This document shows positions 12 through 6,255 of a stretch of DNA of 36,206 nt, in pieces. Source of the DNA: Candidatus Levyibacteriota bacterium (GTDB lineage Bacteria; Patescibacteriota; Microgenomatia; Levybacterales; UBA12049); the NCBI GenBank assembly GCA_023245475.1, contig JAHFKF010000002.1, forward strand, positions 1 to 36,206. The letters run 5' to 3'. Under the pieces are notes generated by a model. It was not told the origin of the DNA, ran no database searches, and saw only the letters and a program-made list of their open reading frames with translations. The first letter of the stretch is position 1. Every line of letters starts with the position of its first letter. The position numbers were made by a program, and so were the translations under genes.

Positions 12-26
12 TACGATATAATCGTA
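12..26 (+). promoter_or_regulatory. Candidate -10 box (TATAAT, 17-22) inside a perfect 6-3-6 palindrome TACGAT-ATA-ATCGTA, 14 nt upstream of the first CDS
   Basis: Read directly from the sequence. Any -35 region would lie at or beyond the window edge, so the promoter cannot be fully evaluated. The palindrome could also be an operator. Confidence 0.3.
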
Positions 27-36
27 AACGTTAATT

Positions 37-687
37 ATGTTCAAAATAGAAAAATTAGATTTCCTTATTTCTTTTTATATTGTCTGCGTTACGTTATCAG
101 AAGTAATGGGTGCAAAAACCTTTCCTATCGCGACGTTCGGAACATTTACATTGAATGCAACCGTTGCTATTTTTGTGCTGCCAATTCTCTACTCTATTAA
201 CGACATCATTATTGAAGTCTATGGCAAAGAAAAAGCCAAAAGTATTGTACGATCAAGTCTTCTCATAATCTTTTTCATTTTCCTCTTTTCACTCCTTGCA
301 ACAAGCTTGCCAGCAAGTAAGCGATTTCTCTCAACTGAAGGAGCATATGACACGATCTTCGGTCTTTCAGCAAGATTTTCTGCAGCAAGTTTGATTGCAT
401 TTATTGTCAGTGAATTTGCTGATATTGCAATCTTTAGTAAGCTGCGAGAAAAGCTGGGTAAAACAAAACTCTGGCTTCGAACTAATGCTTCTAATTTCAT
501 CTCAGAGTTTCTTGATGTTGCGGTATTTATGATCCTCGCATTTTATGCATTTGACCAAAGTCTTGCAAGTAACTTAAGTTTTATTGCAAGTATTGCACTT
601 CCGTATTATCTCCTTAGATGCGTCATGTCGATTCTTGAGACACCACTTGTTTACTTAGGTGTAAAATGGTTGAAAAAAAGTAAATGA
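37..687 (+). CDS. yhhQ: VUT-family (DUF165) membrane transporter, YhhQ-like queuosine-precursor transporter
   Basis: 216 aa, about 6 hydrophobic helices. YSINDIIIEVYGKEKAK and FISEFLDVAVF motifs are typical of YhhQ/VUT proteins. The ATG overlaps nothing; the stop overlaps the next start (ATGA at 684-687). Confidence 0.75.
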   Translation: MFKIEKLDFLISFYIVCVTLSEVMGAKTFPIATFGTFTLNATVAIFVLPILYSINDIIIEVYGKEKAKSIVRSSLLIIFFIFLFSLLATSLPASKRFLSTEGAYDTIFGLSARFSAASLIAFIVSEFADIAIFSKLREKLGKTKLWLRTNASNFISEFLDVAVFMILAFYAFDQSLASNLSFIASIALPYYLLRCVMSILETPLVYLGVKWLKKSK

Positions 688-1223
688 AAATTATTCTCCT
701 CGATGTCTCATCGCTTGATGGCAAACTAACAAAATGGAAAGGCAGCAATATTTACGAATGGTCCTCAGCTGAAGATTTCGCCCATTTTCAAAAAGTCAAA
801 AAAGAAAATAACCTTCTTGTTATGGGTAGTGGTACGTTTGAAAAGGTAAAAGATCTTGAAAAAGCAGGACTCAAAGCAGAGAAGGAACGACTAAGAATCG
901 TCCTGACGAAAAATCCAAAGGAATATCAACAATATGTTGTCCCCGGACAATTAGAATTTTCTGATGAACAACCAAAGGAACTGGTAATACGTCTCAAAAA
1001 GCAAGGCTTTAGACAAATGCTTCTTGTTTCAGGTGGTAAAGTCGCAACATCATTCTTTAAAGCAAGTCTTATTAACGAGCTATGGTTAACGCTGGAACCA
1101 AGAATTTTTGGCATTGGGGAACCATTAGTCCAAGAAGAAGAATTTGATACACAGTTACAATTACTCAGTAGCGAAATACTGAACAAACAAGGAACGATTT
1201 TGCTAAAATATAAAGTACTATGA
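684..1223 (+). CDS. RibD C-terminal domain / dihydrofolate-reductase-like NADPH-dependent reductase
   Basis: 179 aa. MKIILLDVSSLDGKLT, LLVMGSGTFEKV and LLVSGGKVATSFFKASLINELWLTLEPRIFG match the RibD_C/DHFR-like fold signature. 4-nt overlaps with both neighbours. Confidence 0.7.
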   Translation: MKIILLDVSSLDGKLTKWKGSNIYEWSSAEDFAHFQKVKKENNLLVMGSGTFEKVKDLEKAGLKAEKERLRIVLTKNPKEYQQYVVPGQLEFSDEQPKELVIRLKKQGFRQMLLVSGGKVATSFFKASLINELWLTLEPRIFGIGEPLVQEEEFDTQLQLLSSEILNKQGTILLKYKVL

Positions 1224-1975
1224 TCGTCACACCTTACAAAACACATAAGATCTCTCCCAATGAAGATCTCTTTGCAATCCTTGATCGGTATCTCCCTCCA
1301 CTACAAGAAAAAAGTATTGTCGCGATTGCATCAAAAGTGGTTGGTATTTGTGAAGGTCGAGTTGTTAAAATTGATGACAACTTGATTAATCAAAAAGAAG
1401 ATTTAGTTAAGCAAGAAGCAGATTACTATCTGCCACGTGAATCAAATCAGTATAACTTTATGCTCACGATTAATCAGCAACTTCTTGTCGCATCAGCCGG
1501 CATTGATGAGTCAAACAGTAATGGCTATTACAGCATGTGGCCCAAAGATCCGCAAAAAAGTGTCAATGCAATAAGAGAACATCTTAGTAAAAAGCATGGT
1601 ATCAAAGAAGTGGGAATTATTATGACAGATAGTAAACTATCTCCATTGCGTTACGGCGTAACTGGCTATGCAATTGCACACAGCGGATTTGAAGGAACAT
1701 ATAGTTATGTAGGCAAGCCTGATATCTTTGGTAAAATCATGCGAGTTGAAAAAACAAATTTGCCTGATTCTCTTGCAACCACGGCAACACTTGTCATGGG
1801 GGAGGGAGATGAACAACAACCCCTAGCTATCATTACTGATGCTCCTTTTATTACATTTCAACAAAGGAATCCTACTAATGAAGAGTTGGAAGCAGTAAGA
1901 TTTCCACTAGAGGATGATGTCTATGGTGATTTATTAACATCTGTCACCTGGCAGAAAGGAAAAAAGAATGAATAA
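1220..1975 (+). CDS. CofE-like (F420-0:gamma-glutamyl ligase family) gamma-glutamyl ligase, possibly folate/pterin-related
   Basis: 251 aa. IVAIASKVVGICEGRVV, GIDESNSNG, IIMTDSKLSPLRYGVTGYAIAHSGF and ATTATLVMGEGDEQQPLAII resemble the CofE/FbiB N-terminal ligase domain. Confidence 0.7.
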   Translation: MIVTPYKTHKISPNEDLFAILDRYLPPLQEKSIVAIASKVVGICEGRVVKIDDNLINQKEDLVKQEADYYLPRESNQYNFMLTINQQLLVASAGIDESNSNGYYSMWPKDPQKSVNAIREHLSKKHGIKEVGIIMTDSKLSPLRYGVTGYAIAHSGFEGTYSYVGKPDIFGKIMRVEKTNLPDSLATTATLVMGEGDEQQPLAIITDAPFITFQQRNPTNEELEAVRFPLEDDVYGDLLTSVTWQKGKKNE

Positions 1976-2963
1976 ACCATTTCTTATCCGCGATTTAGAA
2001 GCAAATACATACAGAGAAAATTTCTTCGTTGCAGCTATCGTCACCATTTTTATTATTAGAATATTTTTACAATTAACTGACTATCCGCAACTTGGTCTAG
2101 GAGATTTACATATTGCTCATATTCTCTGGGGAGGACTGTTTATGCTGACAGCAATTATTATCCTGTTGTCATTCTTGAATAAATCCGCGGCCAGTATTGC
2201 AGCCGTCCTTGGGGGTATTGGCTTTGGAACGTTTATTGATGAACTGGGCAAAGTAATTACGAAAGAGAATGACTATTTCTTCCAACCAACGATTGCCTAT
2301 ATTTATATTACTTTTGTCCTACTATATTTGATTTCTCGTCTTATTCCACGATATCGGCCAATCTCTCAAAAAGAATATCTCGTCAACGCAATTGAGTTAG
2401 TAAAAGAATCAGCAATTAATGATTTCGATCAGGAGGAAGAAAAACGTGCACGAGACTATCTCAAAAATTGTCCACCAAATGATCCTCATGTCAAAGCAGT
2501 TAAAACACTCCTTGCAAACATTGATGCTCTTCCTGTTGCAAAACCAAATGCTCTTGTCCTAATGAGAATGCTACTTAGCAAATGGTATCATGACGTTGCC
2601 TATTCTGACCTCATCTTCAAAGTAGTTATTATCGTTCTAGGGTTTCAAATCATAAGAACAATCGCACAAACCATTTCAATACTTCGAATCAGACCTGAAT
2701 TGTCATTTGGAGAGTGGGGACAATTTAGTGCATCACTTCTTGCTGCATGTTTTCTGTTAATGGGATTTTTAACATTCAGACTCTCCAGAGTTGGTGCATA
2801 CCGATTCTTCCGCGTGGCAGTACTTATTTCTCTTTTCCTCACTGATTTTTTTGCTTTTATGGATCCTTCCTGGTTTGATATTGTCAGTATTATTGGCAAT
2901 GTCTTTATTCTACAAGTTATTAACTATGCTCAAACTGAAGAGAAACGAAAGAAAAAGAGATAA
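1968..2963 (+). CDS. Multi-pass membrane protein of unknown function (last gene of the overlapping 4-gene operon)
   Basis: 331 aa. N-terminal and C-terminal hydrophobic helix bundles are separated by a soluble ~90-aa charged segment. 8-nt overlap with the upstream CDS. No family recognised. Confidence 0.6.
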   Translation: MNKPFLIRDLEANTYRENFFVAAIVTIFIIRIFLQLTDYPQLGLGDLHIAHILWGGLFMLTAIIILLSFLNKSAASIAAVLGGIGFGTFIDELGKVITKENDYFFQPTIAYIYITFVLLYLISRLIPRYRPISQKEYLVNAIELVKESAINDFDQEEEKRARDYLKNCPPNDPHVKAVKTLLANIDALPVAKPNALVLMRMLLSKWYHDVAYSDLIFKVVIIVLGFQIIRTIAQTISILRIRPELSFGEWGQFSASLLAACFLLMGFLTFRLSRVGAYRFFRVAVLISLFLTDFFAFMDPSWFDIVSIIGNVFILQVINYAQTEEKRKKKR

Positions 2964-3005
2964 TGATTGAAAAACTCTAGTATTTATGTTTTAATTGCTA
3001 TATAA

Positions 3006-3084
3006 GCATCAAGAGTATCCTCCGATTATCGGAGGGTCAGCAACCCTAGAAGTGTGGGTGCTATCTCTGAAATATGAGAGATGC
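3006..3084 (+). promoter_or_regulatory. SAM riboswitch of the SAM-I clan (compact SAM-I/IV-like aptamer) upstream of metK
   Basis: The signature strings occur in canonical order: AUCAAGAG (3008-3015), hairpin CCUCCG-AUUAU-CGGAGG ending in GGAGGG (3019-3036), GCAACC (3040-3045), CCC/GGG helix, GGUGCUA (3057-3063). GCAUC (3006-3010) can pair with GAUGC (3080-3084), which contains the ATG at 3081. An alternative hairpin is AUCUCU/AGAGAU (3063-3068 / 3077-3082). Confidence 0.7.
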
Positions 3085-3095
3085 GTTTCATAAGT

Positions 3096-4217
3096 ATGAA
3101 AAAATTTCTTTTTACCTCTGAATCTGTTTGTGCTGGACACCCAGACAAAATCTGCGACCAAATTAGTGATGCAATTGTTGATGCTGCGCTTGCACAAGAT
3201 CCCACATCTCATACAGGAATTGAAACAGTCGCTGGTGCTGACAAGATTTGTTTGTTTGGAGAAGTGAAAACAAAAGCCAAAATAAACTATGAGAAAATCG
3301 TCCGAGACACAGTAAAGAGATTGGGATATACCGTACCAGCATGGGGCTTTAGCCAAAAATCTCTCTTCCAAAACTATGTCCATGAACAATCCCCTGAAAT
3401 TAATATGGGAGTTGCTCAAGATGGTGAAGTGGGTGCAGGCGATCAAGGGATGATGTTCGGCTATGCATGCGATGAAACCCCAGAACTTATGCCATTACCT
3501 ATTCAACTTGCTCACGCCCTCACAAGACGCATTGATGATACTCGAGAAAAAGGTAAACTTACATGGCTTCGTCCTGATGGCAAAACACAAGTAACCGTTA
3601 GGTATGAAAAGGGGAAACCTGTTTCAATAGCAAAACTGGTTGCAGCAGTTGCTCATGATGAGCAAACCAACGCTGAACAAGTACGAAGCGACATCATTAA
3701 ATATATTTTCAAACCAATTCTTAAACAATATAACTTTGCTATGCCAAGTGATGCAGATATTATTGTGAATGGAACCGGTCTCTGGCATATCCCAGGTCCT
3801 CAATCTGACGCTGGACTTACAGGCAGGAAAATTATCGTTGATACTTATGGCGGTTATGCCCGTGTTGGCGGTGGTGCCTTTAGTGGCAAAGACCCAAGTA
3901 AAGTTGATCGAAGTGGTGCTTATGCCGCCCGTTACATTGCCAAAAATATCGTCGCAGCCGGACTTGCGACCAAATGCGAAGTAGGGCTTGCGTATGTCAT
4001 AGGACAACCTCAGCCACTTATGCAGACAATTGATACCTTTGGCACAGCAACTGTTTCTGAGAAAGCACTCTACAACTTTAAAGATAAGCTGATTGATACC
4101 TCTGTAAAATCAATTATTGAAACGCTTGATCTTGCTCGACCAATTTATAGCCCAACAGGTGCCTATGGTCACTTTGGCCGAAAAGGTTTCCCTTGGGAAA
4201 AAGTCGTTTCTATCTGA
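3096..4217 (+). CDS. metK: S-adenosylmethionine synthetase (methionine adenosyltransferase)
   Basis: MKKFLFTSESVCAGHPDKICDQISDAIVDA, GAGDQGMMFGYA and GGGAFSGKDPSKVDRSGAY are classical MetK motifs. The ORF opens at ATG 3081, but alignment to canonical MetK N-termini favours ATG 3096. The start is uncertain between these two. Confidence 0.95.
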   Translation: MKKFLFTSESVCAGHPDKICDQISDAIVDAALAQDPTSHTGIETVAGADKICLFGEVKTKAKINYEKIVRDTVKRLGYTVPAWGFSQKSLFQNYVHEQSPEINMGVAQDGEVGAGDQGMMFGYACDETPELMPLPIQLAHALTRRIDDTREKGKLTWLRPDGKTQVTVRYEKGKPVSIAKLVAAVAHDEQTNAEQVRSDIIKYIFKPILKQYNFAMPSDADIIVNGTGLWHIPGPQSDAGLTGRKIIVDTYGGYARVGGGAFSGKDPSKVDRSGAYAARYIAKNIVAAGLATKCEVGLAYVIGQPQPLMQTIDTFGTATVSEKALYNFKDKLIDTSVKSIIETLDLARPIYSPTGAYGHFGRKGFPWEKVVSI

Positions 4218-4255: not shown

Positions 4256-4798
4256 ATGACCCTACTTCAGGCTATGTATCTATTTTTTTCATCAATACTG
4301 TTACTTCTTCTTTTCTCGCTTGCCGCAGTTCCGTTTACCTTTGCTAAAACAGAAACGCATATTGAGGTATCAAATAATGGTGAGGGGGCAAACTCTGAAG
4401 TAAATGTTGAAAACAGTACTGGAGAAAGCACCGTATGTGTCAACGGCAAATGTACTACATCATCAGGAAACTCTGAAAATAACTCAACCGTCTGTATCAA
4501 TGGGGAATGCACTACTTCAAATGGAGATGTAAATATACACTCTGAAGATGAAAATGCCAAAGTAACTATTAATAACAATACTACCAGTGAAACAACAGTC
4601 ACTAATGAACTAAAAGAAAAAAACATTATCGATAAAGAGAAAAAGTGGAGTGATAAAAAGGCAAGTATTGAAGCGAAAAGAAAAGAAGTAAGACAAAAGA
4701 AAAAAGAAAAAGAAGAAACGTTTCTTGAACGATTAAAGCAATTTTTTACCTTTCAATTCTTCTTCAAAAAAGATAAAGAAACCCCAGGAAGCGAATAA
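4256..4798 (+). CDS. Secreted or anchored hypothetical protein with two CxNGxC repeats and a Lys/Glu-rich C-terminus
   Basis: 180 aa. Signal-peptide-like N-terminus (LFFSSILLLLLFSLAAVPFTFA/KTE), an Asn/Ser/Thr-rich middle, a KKEKEE-rich tail, then FFTFQFFF. No family recognised. Confidence 0.6.
   Translation: MTLLQAMYLFFSSILLLLLFSLAAVPFTFAKTETHIEVSNNGEGANSEVNVENSTGESTVCVNGKCTTSSGNSENNSTVCINGECTTSNGDVNIHSEDENAKVTINNNTTSETTVTNELKEKNIIDKEKKWSDKKASIEAKRKEVRQKKKEKEETFLERLKQFFTFQFFFKKDKETPGSE
4430..4543 (+). repeat. Tandem duplication of a 57-nt (19-aa) unit encoding TVC[VI]NG[KE]CTTS.G
   Basis: Units at 4430-4486 and 4487-4543 (TVCVNGKCTTSSGNSENNS / TVCINGECTTSNGDVNIHS), read directly from the sequence. 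Confidence 0.6.
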
Positions 4799-5156
4799 GC
4801 CAGATTCTGTTTCCCGCTTCGACTCGATCGAATCGAGGCGAGACGATCGCAATTTCTCTATGCCTGCAAACTTCGATGCTTCGGTAGCACGTATAGCCCG
4901 CCTAGACTTGCGTCTACGCGAGACTGGCGCATCATTCGGCAGTTGCAACAGGTAGGATTGCCCGTTTCATATTCACTCGTCTCTGTTGCTCTCAAATACC
5001 GTCAATTCAGTATCTGCTCCAACTCTCGTTTAGTGAAATAAAGAGTTGAATACTAGCGATTACTCGTCAGAGCTTACACTCCGTCCCCTGCTACTGTTGT
5101 CTGGACTTTCCTCAGGATACCAGAAGGCACCCTGTAGCGATCCTGCTTCCTGGGCT
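4781..5156 (-). ncRNA. rnpB: RNase P RNA, bacterial type A
   Basis: The reverse complement carries GAGGAAAGUCCAGAC (plus coordinates 5099-5113) and ACAGAAUCUGGCUUA (4796-4810), the two P4 strands. It also has a perfect 10-bp P1 (CCCAGGAAGC 5145-5154 with GCUUCCUGGG 4783-4792), a P2 GAUCGC/GCGAUC and an AGCAACAGAGA motif. Length is ~375 nt; ends are +/- a few nt. Confidence 0.9.
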
Positions 5157-5198: not shown

Positions 5199-5807
5199 TT
5201 AGAGAAGCTCTTTTTGAAGGATTTTTTTCAATTCAGTAACTGCTTTTACCCGGTGGTTATACTGTTTCTGTTCTTCAGCAGTTAGTTCTGTCTCAAAATA
5301 ATATTTGTTGAGTTCCGGCAAAAAGAAAAACGATCGATACGGAAAGCCTTTTACTTCATTGAGACTTGGCTCTTTAGCAATAATGCCATTTACTTTACCA
5401 CCAACACTCCATACGCTACCATCTGGAAGAGCCAAAGAAAGTACTGCTTTAAATGAAGCATGACGATTATCCTCAGGAAGTTCCTTAGCAACTTTCTTCA
5501 TGTGCTGGATCAAATCGTTTTCTGTTGTTCCTTCTCCCAACCAACGCTTTGAATGAATTCCTGGTTTATTCCCCAATGCTGCAATTTCTAAACCTCCATC
5601 ATCTGAAACCGCTGGCAAGTTACTTTTTTTCGCGTAAAAAAGTGCCTTCTTCTGAGAATTCTCTTCGTAGGTCGTCCCGTCTTCTTCGACATCTTCGTCG
5701 ATACCAATATCGGTAAGCGAAACAAGTTCTACAGGAAGATCAGAAAGAAGATTACTCAATTCATGAAGTTTGGCAGGATTATGCGTGGCAATCAATAATT
5801 TTTGCAT
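5199..5807 (-). CDS. rdgB: Non-canonical purine NTP pyrophosphatase (XTP/dITP diphosphatase, RdgB/HAM1 family)
   Basis: 202 aa. MQKLLIATHNPAKLHEL, SDDGGLEI and GFPYRSFFFLPE are typical of RdgB/HAM1. Confidence 0.9.
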   Translation of the reverse strand: MQKLLIATHNPAKLHELSNLLSDLPVELVSLTDIGIDEDVEEDGTTYEENSQKKALFYAKKSNLPAVSDDGGLEIAALGNKPGIHSKRWLGEGTTENDLIQHMKKVAKELPEDNRHASFKAVLSLALPDGSVWSVGGKVNGIIAKEPSLNEVKGFPYRSFFFLPELNKYYFETELTAEEQKQYNHRVKAVTELKKILQKELL

Positions 5808-5811
5808 ATGT

Positions 5812-6255
5812 TTATTTTCTTGTAATTAATTTTTTATATCTCTTTTGAAAAATGGATGCCTCAGGATTCTCAGTCATATAGAGATTCTTTTCTAACCATC
5901 GCATTGTATCAGGATTTCCTAATACTGAAAAGACTACCAATATATCTCGATCCATCTCCCTTGCTACTTTCTCCAAGACCTGTTCAAACGCCTGAACTGA
6001 GGGAGTACCATGACCTGGCTGTGCACGCTTATGAATATTATTTAAGATGATAAGATTCCTATCATCAATTATGTCAAACGCATAATGTGCTAGCTTATCT
6101 CCAAGAGGAACATAGTCAAGAGTTACAGCAGGTAACGGATGCATACTATAAATCTCCCATTCACCACTGTGTTCACGAACTTTTTCTCCGCTGAAAACAC
6201 GTTGTAATAAAGCTGTAGTCATATTATAGTCAGGTTTTTCTCTTTCAGCACTCAT
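5812..6255 (-). CDS. Hypothetical protein (weak GNAT-like Q-x-x-G-x-G segment)
   Basis: 147 aa, packed between lysK (2-nt gap) and rdgB (4-nt gap). RAQPGHGTPSVQAFEQVLEKVA faintly resembles GNAT motif A. No confident family. Confidence 0.5.
   Translation of the reverse strand: MSAEREKPDYNMTTALLQRVFSGEKVREHSGEWEIYSMHPLPAVTLDYVPLGDKLAHYAFDIIDDRNLIILNNIHKRAQPGHGTPSVQAFEQVLEKVAREMDRDILVVFSVLGNPDTMRWLEKNLYMTENPEASIFQKRYKKLITRK

What the first reader, a model, noticed from the sequence alone, without database searches (positions are those of the whole stretch)
37..2963. Overlapping 4-gene operon: VUT/YhhQ transporter, RibD_C/DHFR-like reductase, CofE-like gamma-glutamyl ligase and an unknown membrane protein; a putative cofactor salvage-and-trapping module
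Seen in sequence: the four ORFs are chained by start/stop overlaps (ATGA at 684-687 and 1220-1223; 8-nt overlap at 1968-1975), which argues for obligatory co-expression. Established knowledge: YhhQ/VUT proteins import 7-deazapurine (preQ0/preQ1) or vitamin-type precursors. RibD_C/DHFR-fold enzymes do NADPH-dependent reduction of pterin/pyrimidine rings. CofE-type ligases add gamma-linked glutamates to a cofactor tail, a classic intracellular retention mark. Inference: together they read as import, then reduce, then polyglutamylate a folate, pterin or deazaflavin-like cofactor, in an organism that probably cannot make it de novo. This differs from the canonical FolC/FolA route and from YhhQ's usual queuosine context (no queuosine genes adjacent). 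The 331-aa membrane protein has no recognisable family.
Basis: partly seen in the sequence, partly recalled or inferred. Interest (0 to 1): 0.6.

Follow-up and report, generated by a model that had tools for sequence, protein, structure and literature searches.

The report
Folate import-reduce-trap operon in Patescibacteria
A tiny-genome bacterium that cannot make the vitamin folate carries three tightly linked genes that most likely import, reduce and glutamylate it. The importer belongs to a family known only for queuosine precursors, so databases probably misname it; the fourth gene is a bystander.

Summary
The four overlapping ORFs and their domain calls are confirmed. Longer assemblies of the same strain show the operon starts at the transporter gene.

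- **Ligase:** it is not an F420 enzyme. It is a FolC2-type folylpolyglutamate synthase, the CofE homologue proven in Chlamydia. It is the only such enzyme in this genome.
- **Reductase:** the "RibD_C" protein is a Thermotoga-type dihydrofolate reductase by sequence and predicted fold. It is a second copy, because a canonical folA sits beside thyA elsewhere.
- **Folate status:** the genome has ThyA, SHMT, FolD, Fmt and PurN. It lacks FolE, FolB, FolK, FolP and FolC, so it must salvage folate.
- **Transporter:** Patescibacteria VUT proteins split into two clades.
  - One clade sits next to tgt.
  - The other, including this gene, sits next to FolC2, canonical FolC, FolA/ThyA or SHMT.
  - This second clade is the only VUT in genomes without tgt, one of them a closed chromosome.
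  - This makes it a candidate folate importer, which I did not find described in the literature.
- **Membrane protein:** the 331-aa protein belongs to a large unnamed family with no folate linkage. It is broken in the sister genome, so it is a passenger.

No experiment supports any of this.

The parts
17..22 (+). TATAAT, a candidate -10 promoter box 14 nt before the first ATG. It leaves no room for the leader peptide seen in some relatives.
   Evidence: Read directly from the sequence. Close relatives L093, L094 and L101 have TG-n-TATAAT 14-27 nt before their ATG. The consensus scan was not above chance. This is a weak inference.
37..687 (+). VUT/QPTR-family membrane protein of the folate-linked clade ('clade F'); candidate folate importer.
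   Evidence: Family: Pfam Vut_1 8.5e-37 and TIGR00697 114.8 bits, but the E. coli YhhQ model NF008406 scores only 61 against a cut-off of 252.

Tree and neighbourhoods:
- The tree splits clade F from the tgt-adjacent clade Q.
- Clade F members lie next to FolC2, FolC, FolA/ThyA or SHMT.

Genome content:
- The own genome has no TGT.
- It has no VUT paralogue.
684..1223 (+). Second dihydrofolate reductase, Thermotoga maritima DHFR type (scored by Pfam as RibD_C).
   Evidence: - The best PDB sequence hit is TmDHFR 1cz3/1d1g, E 2.5e-21 over the full length.
- The AF2 model has pLDDT 93. Its top fold hit is 1cz3, with TM 0.83/0.90 and E 9e-18. Pyrimidine reductases score about 1e-12.
- Invariant residues across 40 homologues: G13, S28, E30, D31, T51, T75, E91, G117, T136, E138, P139, G143, G145, N167, G170, Y176.
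- It occupies the slot that canonical FolA holds beside FolC2 in other genomes.
1220..1975 (+). FolC2-type (CofE-fold) folylpolyglutamate synthase; the only FPGS candidate in the genome.
   Evidence: - Family scores: TIGR04132 278 bits against CofE TIGR01916 115 bits.
- Homologues in 80 species sit beside FolKP, FolB, FolE, CADD, FolA, ThyA and PurN.
- The own genome has no canonical FolC and no CofD.
- JGI names homologues 'dihydrofolate synthase / folylpolyglutamate synthase'.
1968..2963 (+). 331-aa polytopic membrane protein of a large unnamed Patescibacteria family. Co-transcribed here, but probably not part of the folate module.
   Evidence: - More than 1,900 relatives, all annotated as hypothetical, none with a Pfam domain.
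- It lies next to FolC2 only here and in sister locus L102. There it carries a 60-residue deletion and a frame break.
- Elsewhere its contexts are unrelated to folate. In G008 it lies upstream of metK, away from that genome's triad.
- The AF2 model is poor: pLDDT 66, 12 helices in all.

Best explanation
Genes 1-3 form a folate salvage module for a folate auxotroph.

- **Import (inferred).** The VUT-family membrane protein brings in an exogenous folate, most simply a monoglutamyl or oxidised form.
- **Reduction (homology shown, substrate inferred).** The co-translated Thermotoga-type DHFR reduces it towards tetrahydrofolate with NADPH.
- **Trapping (family function shown in Chlamydia, inferred here).** The FolC2-type ligase adds gamma-glutamates. 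This traps the cofactor in the cell and makes it a good substrate for the genome's folate-using enzymes: SHMT, FolD, ThyA, Fmt and PurN.
- **Division of labour (inferred).** A separate canonical FolA beside thyA recycles the dihydrofolate made by ThyA. The operon's DHFR would be dedicated to incoming vitamin.
- **Fourth gene.** The 331-aa membrane protein is a lineage-specific neighbour that belongs with metK or stands alone.
For: 1. **Need for folate.**
   - The own genome encodes ThyA, FolA and SHMT (contig C25), FolD (C29), an Fmt-like protein (C39) and a PurF-PurN fusion (C52).
   - It has no FolE, FolB, FolK, FolP or CADD and no canonical FolC.
2. **The ligase is FolC2.**
   - TIGR04132 is the best family hit.
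   - In 80 species its homologues sit with FolKP, FolB, FolE, CADD, FolA, ThyA-Dcd-Tmk or PurF-PurN.
   - CT611, a member of this family, complements E. coli folC (PMC1971073).
   - FolC and FolC2 were mutually exclusive in the 21 genomes tested.
3. **The reductase is a DHFR.** The TmDHFR match holds by sequence and by fold. G011, G012 and G013 have RibD_C-type plus FolC2 and no canonical FolA.
4. **The transporter is folate-linked.**
   - The VUT tree has a folate-linked clade of 29 rows: 22 lie beside a folate gene and none beside tgt. The other clade has 18 rows: 4 beside tgt and 1 beside folate genes.
   - In a sample chosen by VUT alone from 400 evenly drawn Patescibacteria genomes, 11 of 18 clade-F genes lie next to FolC2, canonical FolC (TIGR01499, 291-293 bits) or SHMT. 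Only 1 of 11 clade-Q genes does (Fisher p = 0.008).
   - FolC2 occurs in 10 of 18 clade-F genomes against 45 of 382 others (p = 2e-5).
   - G001 and G006 carry both a tgt-adjacent VUT and the triad VUT.
   - G000, G007 (a closed 1.14-Mb chromosome), G008 and G009 have no TGT and only the clade-F VUT.
   - All 11 clade-F genomes tested lack FolP. Of the 3 genomes with FolP, one has no VUT hit and the other two have no clade-F VUT.
   - In G022 the clade-F VUT lies between thyA and folA.
Against: - There are no transport, enzyme or expression data.
- Every clade-F VUT still passes NCBIfam's 'queuosine precursor transporter' equivalog cut-off.
- 6 of the 10 genomes carrying the triad or a VUT-FolC2 pair (G000-G009) do have TGT. 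G003 has TGT with only a clade-F VUT, so dual specificity is not excluded.
- One clade-Q VUT (L131) lies between FolC2 and a RibD_C gene.
- 7 of 29 clade-F genes have no folate gene within 1.5 kb.
- A canonical FolA is present in all ten of those genomes (G000-G009). The need for a second DHFR is therefore unexplained, and its substrate (folic acid or dihydrofolate) is a guess.
- The own genome is 91.6% complete, so absences there rest partly on the closed relative G007.
- No THF riboswitch was found.
Confidence: 0.68

Rival explanations
1. The VUT protein is an ordinary queuosine-precursor (preQ0/preQ1/queuine) transporter, as annotated. It merely sits next to folate genes, or it is dual-specific. 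Folate enters by some other route.
For: - It passes TIGR00697.
- All characterised family members carry 7-deazaguanines (PMC5372724, PMC11130926).
- 6 of the 10 genomes G000-G009 have TGT, and G003 has no other VUT.
- L131 shows a clade-Q VUT among folate genes.
Against: - Neither the own genome nor the closed G007 chromosome has a TGT-family gene by HMM or tblastn.
- Genomes with TGT usually carry a separate tgt-adjacent paralogue.
- Adjacency to two unrelated FPGS types (FolC2 and FolC), to FolA/ThyA and to SHMT is hard to get by chance.
Confidence: 0.12
2. The transporter carries a folate-related compound other than intact folate, and the enzymes act on that. Candidates are pteroate or dihydropteroate (using the dihydrofolate-synthase side of FolC2), a pterin, p-aminobenzoyl-glutamate or a thymine-type nucleobase.
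For: - FolC2 of Chlamydia rescues a mutant lacking both DHFS and FPGS activities (PMC1971073).
- A second reductase would make sense for an oxidised pteroate.
- The VUT lies between thyA and folA in G022.
Against: - Without FolK/FolP, pterin or pABA-Glu cannot be used.
- The recurrent partner is a glutamate ligase, not a nucleotide enzyme.
- Pteroate is not a common environmental vitamin (my own knowledge).
Confidence: 0.1
3. The module serves a non-folate cofactor: F420 or a deazaflavin, with the ligase acting as a true CofE; or riboflavin synthesis, with the RibD_C protein as the pyrimidine reductase.
For: - Pfam names the proteins F420_ligase and RibD_C.
- The own genome has RibE and RibH on C105.
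- G008 and G012 carry a true CofD.
Against: - The CofE models are well below their cut-offs and the own genome has no CofD.
- RibH is absent from 7 of 10 triad genomes, including the closed G007.
- The RibD and archaeal reductase models are far below their cut-offs.
- The fold match favours TmDHFR by five orders of magnitude.
- Folate genes are the consistent neighbours.
Confidence: 0.05

Closest known systems
FolC2 (Chlamydia trachomatis CT611; COG1478; NCBIfam TIGR04132)
   Same: It has the CofE fold and is found in folC-less genomes with no F420 pathway. It is clustered with DHFR and other folate genes. Chlamydial and Wolbachia homologues are 43-46% identical to the window protein.
   Different: The score of 278 bits is under the model's trusted cut-off of 350. 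Here it sits in a salvage context (transporter, no FolKP/CADD) rather than a de novo synthesis cluster. Activity has not been tested.
Thermotoga maritima dihydrofolate reductase (PDB 1cz3/1d1g); more distantly, M. tuberculosis Rv2671, a RibD_C-type DHFR analogue
   Same: There is full-length homology (33% identity, E 2.5e-21) and the predicted fold matches at TM 0.83-0.90. The Asp, Gly-Gly and Thr positions are conserved. Rv2671 shows that RibD_C-like proteins can bind folate pteridines: PDB 4xt4/4xt6, and Cheng and Sacchettini 2016 as cited in PMC10812664.
   Different: It is a second DHFR alongside a canonical FolA. It is translationally coupled to a transporter and a ligase. Its substrate preference is unknown. 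It has Ser-Gly where E. coli has Arg-His in the MGxxT NADPH motif.
QPTR/YhhQ (COG1738, Pfam Vut_1): preQ0/preQ1/queuine importers
   Same: The family and length are the same, and most family-wide conserved residues are shared: K27, D56, E60, R113, S118, W146, R148, D160, Y206.
   Different: - It forms a separate clade only 27-31% identical to the tgt-linked paralogues.
- It occurs without TGT.
- It is linked to folate genes.
- Four otherwise conserved positions are switched: F108/L, F122/Y, D129/N, S156/G.
Known bacterial folate uptake systems (ECF FolT; folate-biopterin transporter family), from my own knowledge
   Same: The proposed role is the same: vitamin import in auxotrophs, often encoded next to folC.
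   Different: The protein family is unrelated. No THF riboswitch was detected here.

Membership tests
FolC2 (TIGR04132, CofE-like folylpolyglutamate synthase) | F420_ligase/CofE fold | tested here: met
   PF01996 9.1e-35. The profile hits CofE structures 2g9i, 7uld and 2phn at E 7e-26.
FolC2 (TIGR04132, CofE-like folylpolyglutamate synthase) | Score at or above the NCBIfam trusted cut-off | tested here: not met
   278 bits against a cut-off of 350. It is still by far the best model; CofE TIGR01916 scores 115.
FolC2 (TIGR04132, CofE-like folylpolyglutamate synthase) | Genome lacks canonical FolC and the F420 pathway | tested here: met
   No TIGR01499 hit in the own genome or in the other 15 FolC2-bearing genomes tested with it. 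No CofD in the own genome.
FolC2 (TIGR04132, CofE-like folylpolyglutamate synthase) | Clustering with folate genes | tested here: met
   A DHFR-superfamily gene lies nearby in 29 of 81 loci. FolKP, FolB, FolE, CADD, ThyA and PurN also occur as neighbours.
FolC2 (TIGR04132, CofE-like folylpolyglutamate synthase) | Folate glutamylation activity or folC complementation | not testable with these tools
   Shown only for CT611 (PMC1971073).
QPTR/YhhQ queuosine-precursor transporter | Vut_1 domain and TIGR00697 cut-off | tested here: met
   127 bits for Vut_1; 114.8 bits against a cut-off of 50.95 for TIGR00697.
QPTR/YhhQ queuosine-precursor transporter | Genome has a user of 7-deazaguanines (TGT or a TGT-like DpdA) | tested here: not met
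   No PF01702 match in G000, G007 (closed), G008 or G009. tblastn with a CPR TGT was also negative in G000.
QPTR/YhhQ queuosine-precursor transporter | Clustering with queuosine genes | tested here: not met
   No clade-F gene lies next to tgt (0 of 29). Four clade-Q genes do.
QPTR/YhhQ queuosine-precursor transporter | preQ0/preQ1/queuine transport | not testable with these tools
   Needs the E. coli queD yhhQ assay of PMC5372724 / PMC11130926.
Dihydrofolate reductase (TmDHFR type) | Full-length homology and fold match to a characterised DHFR | tested here: met
   1cz3: E 2.5e-21 by sequence; TM 0.83/0.90 and E 9e-18 by fold.
Dihydrofolate reductase (TmDHFR type) | Pfam DHFR_1 gathering score | tested here: not met
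   21.2 bits against 25. Many close homologues do carry both PF00186 and PF01872.
Dihydrofolate reductase (TmDHFR type) | Conserved acidic residue and NADPH motifs | tested here: inconclusive
   E30-D31, G48/T51, G117 and T136 are invariant or nearly so. Their equivalence to E. coli D27, G43/T46, G96 and T113 is by alignment and from memory. It was not verified on a ligand complex.
RibD reductase domain (riboflavin synthesis) | Passes the RibD / archaeal reductase models and co-occurs with riboflavin genes | tested here: not met
   TIGR01508 scores 39 against 186, and TIGR00227 scores 37 against 150. RibH is absent from 7 of 10 triad genomes.
CofE (F420-0:glutamate ligase) | Passes the CofE equivalog and the genome has an F420 pathway | tested here: not met
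   TIGR01916 scores 115 against 180.65. No CofD in the own genome.

The most novel reading that the evidence does not exclude
A whole clade of the VUT/QPTR (COG1738, Pfam Vut_1) family has switched from 7-deazaguanines to folates. This family is currently annotated across genomes as queuosine-precursor transporters. The clade would be a previously unrecognised class of prokaryotic folate importer. It would be the main folate entry route of many Patescibacteria, coupled in operons to a dedicated second DHFR and a FolC2 or FolC ligase. Four switched residues (F108, F122, D129, S156) are candidate specificity determinants.
Probability: 0.6. Interest if true: 0.7.

Novelty: new variant of a known kind. 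Interest (0 to 1): 0.55.

Why it matters
Patescibacteria are vitamin-dependent episymbionts. How they obtain folate is not established.

- If the clade-F VUT proteins import folate, that fills a missing step in their metabolism.
- It would add a third unrelated family to the known bacterial folate transporters.
- It would correct a systematic database error. These proteins pass the 'queuosine precursor transporter' equivalog rule, and the ligase is widely named an F420 enzyme.
- It gives a clean pair of paralogous clades for working out how a small transporter tells a pterin from a 7-deazaguanine.

All steps can be tested directly in E. coli laboratory strains.

Tried and rejected
- **F420 reading rejected.** The CofE models are below their cut-offs and the own genome has no CofD.
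- **Riboflavin reading rejected.**
  - The own genome has only a RibE-RibH pair, on another contig.
  - RibH is missing from most triad genomes.
  - The fold match favours TmDHFR.
- **Riboswitch search found nothing.** I looked for THF or preQ1 riboswitches in front of 39 VUT loci and in the window. Only tRNAs reached gathering score.
- **Leader-peptide lead from earlier scan notes.** A 15-codon uORF ending ...TWSSFIK* does precede VUT in L105 and L109. This locus and its close relatives have a -10 box 14-27 nt from the ATG and no uORF.
- **Promoter and terminator scans** were not above chance.
- **Membrane protein.**
  - No Pfam or NCBIfam hit.
  - The AF2 model was too poor (pLDDT 66) to justify a fold search.
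  - Neighbourhoods are inconsistent.
- **Missing upstream genes considered and dismissed.** The contig edge does not hide upstream operon genes, as longer assemblies show.
- **No solved structure** exists for any Vut_1 protein.
Full report
**Observation**

The overlaps are two ATGA motifs and one 8-nt overlap.

Pfam confirms Vut_1 (8.5e-37), RibD_C (2.3e-18) and F420_ligase (9.1e-35). The 331-aa protein has no hit.

Overlaps are common in this genome: 14 of 29 same-strand neighbour pairs in the window overlap. They show co-transcription but are not unusual.

The window is the whole of contig C102 in a 1.24-Mb, 122-contig, 91.6%-complete genome. The nearest relatives are labelled Levybacteria or Microgenomates.

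The operon begins 36 nt from the contig end. Two longer assemblies of the same strain (ENA, 157 kb; Logan, 9.5 kb) show a divergent 148-aa gene 119 nt upstream, then the same four genes, then metK. Nothing is missing upstream.

A SAM-I/IV riboswitch match (3001-3113, E 5e-4, just below gathering) separates the operon from metK.

**The ligase is FolC2, not CofE**

- NCBIfam's best model is TIGR04132, 'putative folate metabolism gamma-glutamate ligase', at 278 bits. Its cut-off is 350. The CofE equivalog scores 115 against a cut-off of 181.
- More than 1,300 relatives at 60-70% identity exist. JGI names many of them FolC2 or DHFS/FPGS.
- I fetched 80 species-level loci, clustered their neighbours and scanned representatives. 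The neighbours are:
  - HPPK-DHPS, FolB, GTP cyclohydrolase I and a CADD/PqqC-like protein in Chlamydiae, Wolbachia and other Alphaproteobacteria;
  - thymidylate synthase, dCTP deaminase and thymidylate kinase in Levybacteria;
  - a PurF-PurN fusion.
- The family was predicted, and CT611 was shown to complement E. coli folC, in de Crecy-Lagard et al. 2007 (PMC1971073).
- Canonical FolC (TIGR01499) is absent from the own genome and from the other 15 FolC2-bearing genomes tested with it. It is present in three VUT genomes that lack FolC2.
- The own genome has no CofD.

**The reductase is a second DHFR of the Thermotoga type**

- Its best match among solved structures is T. maritima DHFR (1cz3/1d1g), E 2.5e-21 over the full length.
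- An AlphaFold model (pLDDT 93) matches 1cz3 at TM 0.83/0.90 and E 9e-18. Archaeal and bacterial pyrimidine reductases come next at about 1e-12. Rv2671, a RibD_C-type DHFR analogue crystallised with folate pteridine rings, is also in the list.
- Across 40 homologues, E30-D31, T51, G117, T136 and P139 are invariant, and G48 is nearly so. By alignment these positions are the DHFR acid, the NADPH loop, the Gly-Gly motif and the Thr.
- JGI and NCBI already call relatives 'dihydrofolate reductase (family protein)'.
- Beside FolC2, the adjacent DHFR slot is filled by this type in 13 loci and by canonical FolA in 16.
- G011, G012 and G013 have only this type.
- In the own genome and all nine other genomes carrying the triad or a VUT-FolC2 pair (G001-G009), a canonical FolA is also present. 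In the own genome it lies beside thyA on C25.
- The operon's enzyme is therefore an extra DHFR. Its dedication to imported, possibly oxidised, folate is my inference.
- The riboflavin alternative fails. RibH is absent from 7 of 10 triad genomes, including the closed G007 chromosome. The own genome has only RibE-RibH, on another contig.

**The genome is a folate auxotroph that uses folate**

- Present: ThyA, FolA and SHMT (C25), FolD (C29), an Fmt-like protein (C39) and PurF-PurN (C52).
- Absent: FolE, FolB, FolK, FolP and CADD by tblastn with CPR queries, Pterin_bind by HMM and FolC.

**The transporter**

This is the part that I could not find in the literature.

*Two VUT types.* In 25 genomes reached through the FolC2 loci, two types appear.

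- One is 27-31% identical to ours. It lies divergently next to tgt in G001, G006 and G024.
- The other is 59-77% identical. It lies next to DHFR2-FolC2, or FolC2 alone, or between thyA and folA (G022).
- Five genomes carry both types.
- G000, G007 (closed chromosome OY970292.1), G008 and G009 have no TGT-family gene and only the second type.
- All genomes with the second type lack FolP. Of the three genomes with FolP, G012 and G023 have no VUT hit at all, and G024 has only the tgt-adjacent type.

*An unbiased sample.* To remove ascertainment bias I searched 400 evenly drawn Patescibacteria genomes with the VUT protein itself and examined the 29 best loci.

- In the resulting tree the family splits into two clades. 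Support is SH-aLRT 94 on the two sides of the midpoint-drawn split, and 100 for the main tgt-linked group.
- The folate-linked clade has 29 rows: 22 are next to a folate gene and none is next to tgt.
- The other clade has 18 rows: 4 are next to tgt and 1 is next to folate genes.
- Within the VUT-ascertained sample, 11 of 18 clade-F genes abut FolC2, DHFR2-FolC2, SHMT or a canonical FolC. The canonical FolC cases are two genomes, with TIGR01499 scoring 291-293 bits. Only 1 of 11 clade-Q genes abuts a folate gene (p = 0.008).

Pairing with two non-homologous folylpolyglutamate synthases is the strongest single argument that the transported molecule is their substrate.

*Phylogenetic profile.* FolC2 occurs in 10 of 18 clade-F genomes against 45 of 382 others (p = 2e-5).

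*Residue differences.* Four positions that are otherwise conserved across the family differ consistently between the clades: F108/L, F122/Y, D129/N and S156/G.

*Literature.* The COG1738/QPTR papers discuss only preQ0, preQ1 and queuine. They explain TGT-less carriers by DNA deazapurine modification (PMC5372724, PMC11130926). Searches combining the family names with folate or CPR found nothing.

**The fourth gene**

- The 331-aa protein belongs to a family of more than 1,900 'hypothetical' proteins at 50-65% identity, with no Pfam domain.
- It is next to FolC2 only here and in the sister genome (L102). There the N-terminal 140 residues are 98.6% identical, residues 141-200 are deleted and the frame is broken.
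- Among the 80 FolC2 loci, only L027 has a homologue, 5 kb away on the other strand.
- In other genomes it sits among unrelated genes.
- In G008, which has its own triad elsewhere, it lies directly upstream of metK.
- I conclude the triad was placed in front of a pre-existing membrane-protein/metK pair.
- Its function remains unknown. The structure model was too weak to search with.

**Regulation**

- No riboswitch was found upstream of any VUT locus.
- Earlier scan notes pointed to a conserved leader peptide. I found it in L105 and L109 (...TWSSFIK*).
- This locus has TATAAT at 17-22, 14 nt before the ATG. Its close relatives have the same simple layout.

**Comparison and verdict**

- The ligase is a member of the known FolC2 family.
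- The reductase is a member of the known DHFR superfamily, on the TmDHFR branch.
- The transporter is a sequence member of the QPTR family but fails that family's contextual criteria. It most likely works as a folate importer.
- As a system this is an ordinary kind of thing, vitamin salvage, built with an unexpected transporter.
- Other agents of this scan reached the same reading in at least eight other genomes. I treat that as a lead, not as evidence.

Noticed in passing
window 1968-2963; homologues P0122-P0240: The 331-aa membrane protein defines a large family (more than 1,900 relatives) with no Pfam model. It is strongly conserved. Invariant residues include H48, H51, G82-G83-x-G85-F86-G87, D91-E92, K95, and D152-F153-D154 in a central soluble segment. 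It lies directly upstream of metK in two lineages.
   Followed up: partly
L105 and L109, about 60-110 nt upstream of the VUT start: A 15-codon upstream ORF ends ...T-W-S-S-F-I-K-stop: MIISNKIVTWSSFIK in L105 and MLLNKRTTTWSSFIK in L109. It precedes VUT-FolC2 operons and matches the leader peptide reported by earlier scan notes. It is absent from this window's sub-clade.
   Followed up: partly
L010, L011, L013, L049, L054, L056, L063 (about 5540-6004 in each; 1488-1853 in L049): A 121-155-aa protein with no Pfam hit lies immediately upstream of FolC2, overlapping it by 4 nt in five of the seven loci. The surrounding block is folA / FolC2 / thyA, in Levybacteria-type genomes that lack the VUT. 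It shares a motif, HNA.H.G ... IAGIKR. It is an unassigned gene linked to folate genes.
   Followed up: no
L011:4054-4947, L014, L049, L056, L063: A protein of about 300 aa with no Pfam hit is conserved between IMPDH and folA in the same Levybacteria-type loci.
   Followed up: no
window 4780-5153 (-) and 3001-3113 (+): RNase P class A RNA scores 60.6 bits (E 1.9e-17) against a gathering score of 100. A SAM-I/IV riboswitch scores 38.2 bits (E 5e-4) against 41.1. Both fall below Rfam gathering scores, so default annotation would miss them.
   Followed up: partly
genome contig C105:1717-2774: Only riboflavin synthase (RibE) and lumazine synthase (RibH) were seen, as an overlapping pair next to trpS. 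No RibD, RibA or RibB lies on that contig. This suggests a partial riboflavin pathway that would need an imported precursor.
   Followed up: no
genome contig C52:12350-14446; L003:8733-10829 and 8 other loci: A PurF-PurN fusion of about 700 aa (glutamine amidotransferase, PRTase and formyltransferase) recurs near FolC2 in several Patescibacteria.
   Followed up: no
G001, G002, G003, G005, G006, G010, G014, G017, G018, G021, G024: Many Patescibacteria TGT genes match the Pfam model in two pieces, with an insert after about model position 100. Their reading frames are 424-497 aa, against about 400 aa for the TGT genes that match the model in one piece.
   Followed up: no
G008:C5:9008-9910 and G012:C2:77140-78045: True CofD hits (347 and 316 bits) occur in two genomes that also carry RibD_C-FolC2. 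This is either a real F420 pathway or bin contamination.
   Followed up: no
L131 (G421:C12): This is the exception to the clade rule. A tgt-type (clade-Q) VUT lies on the opposite strand between FolC2 and a RibD_C-type gene.
   Followed up: partly
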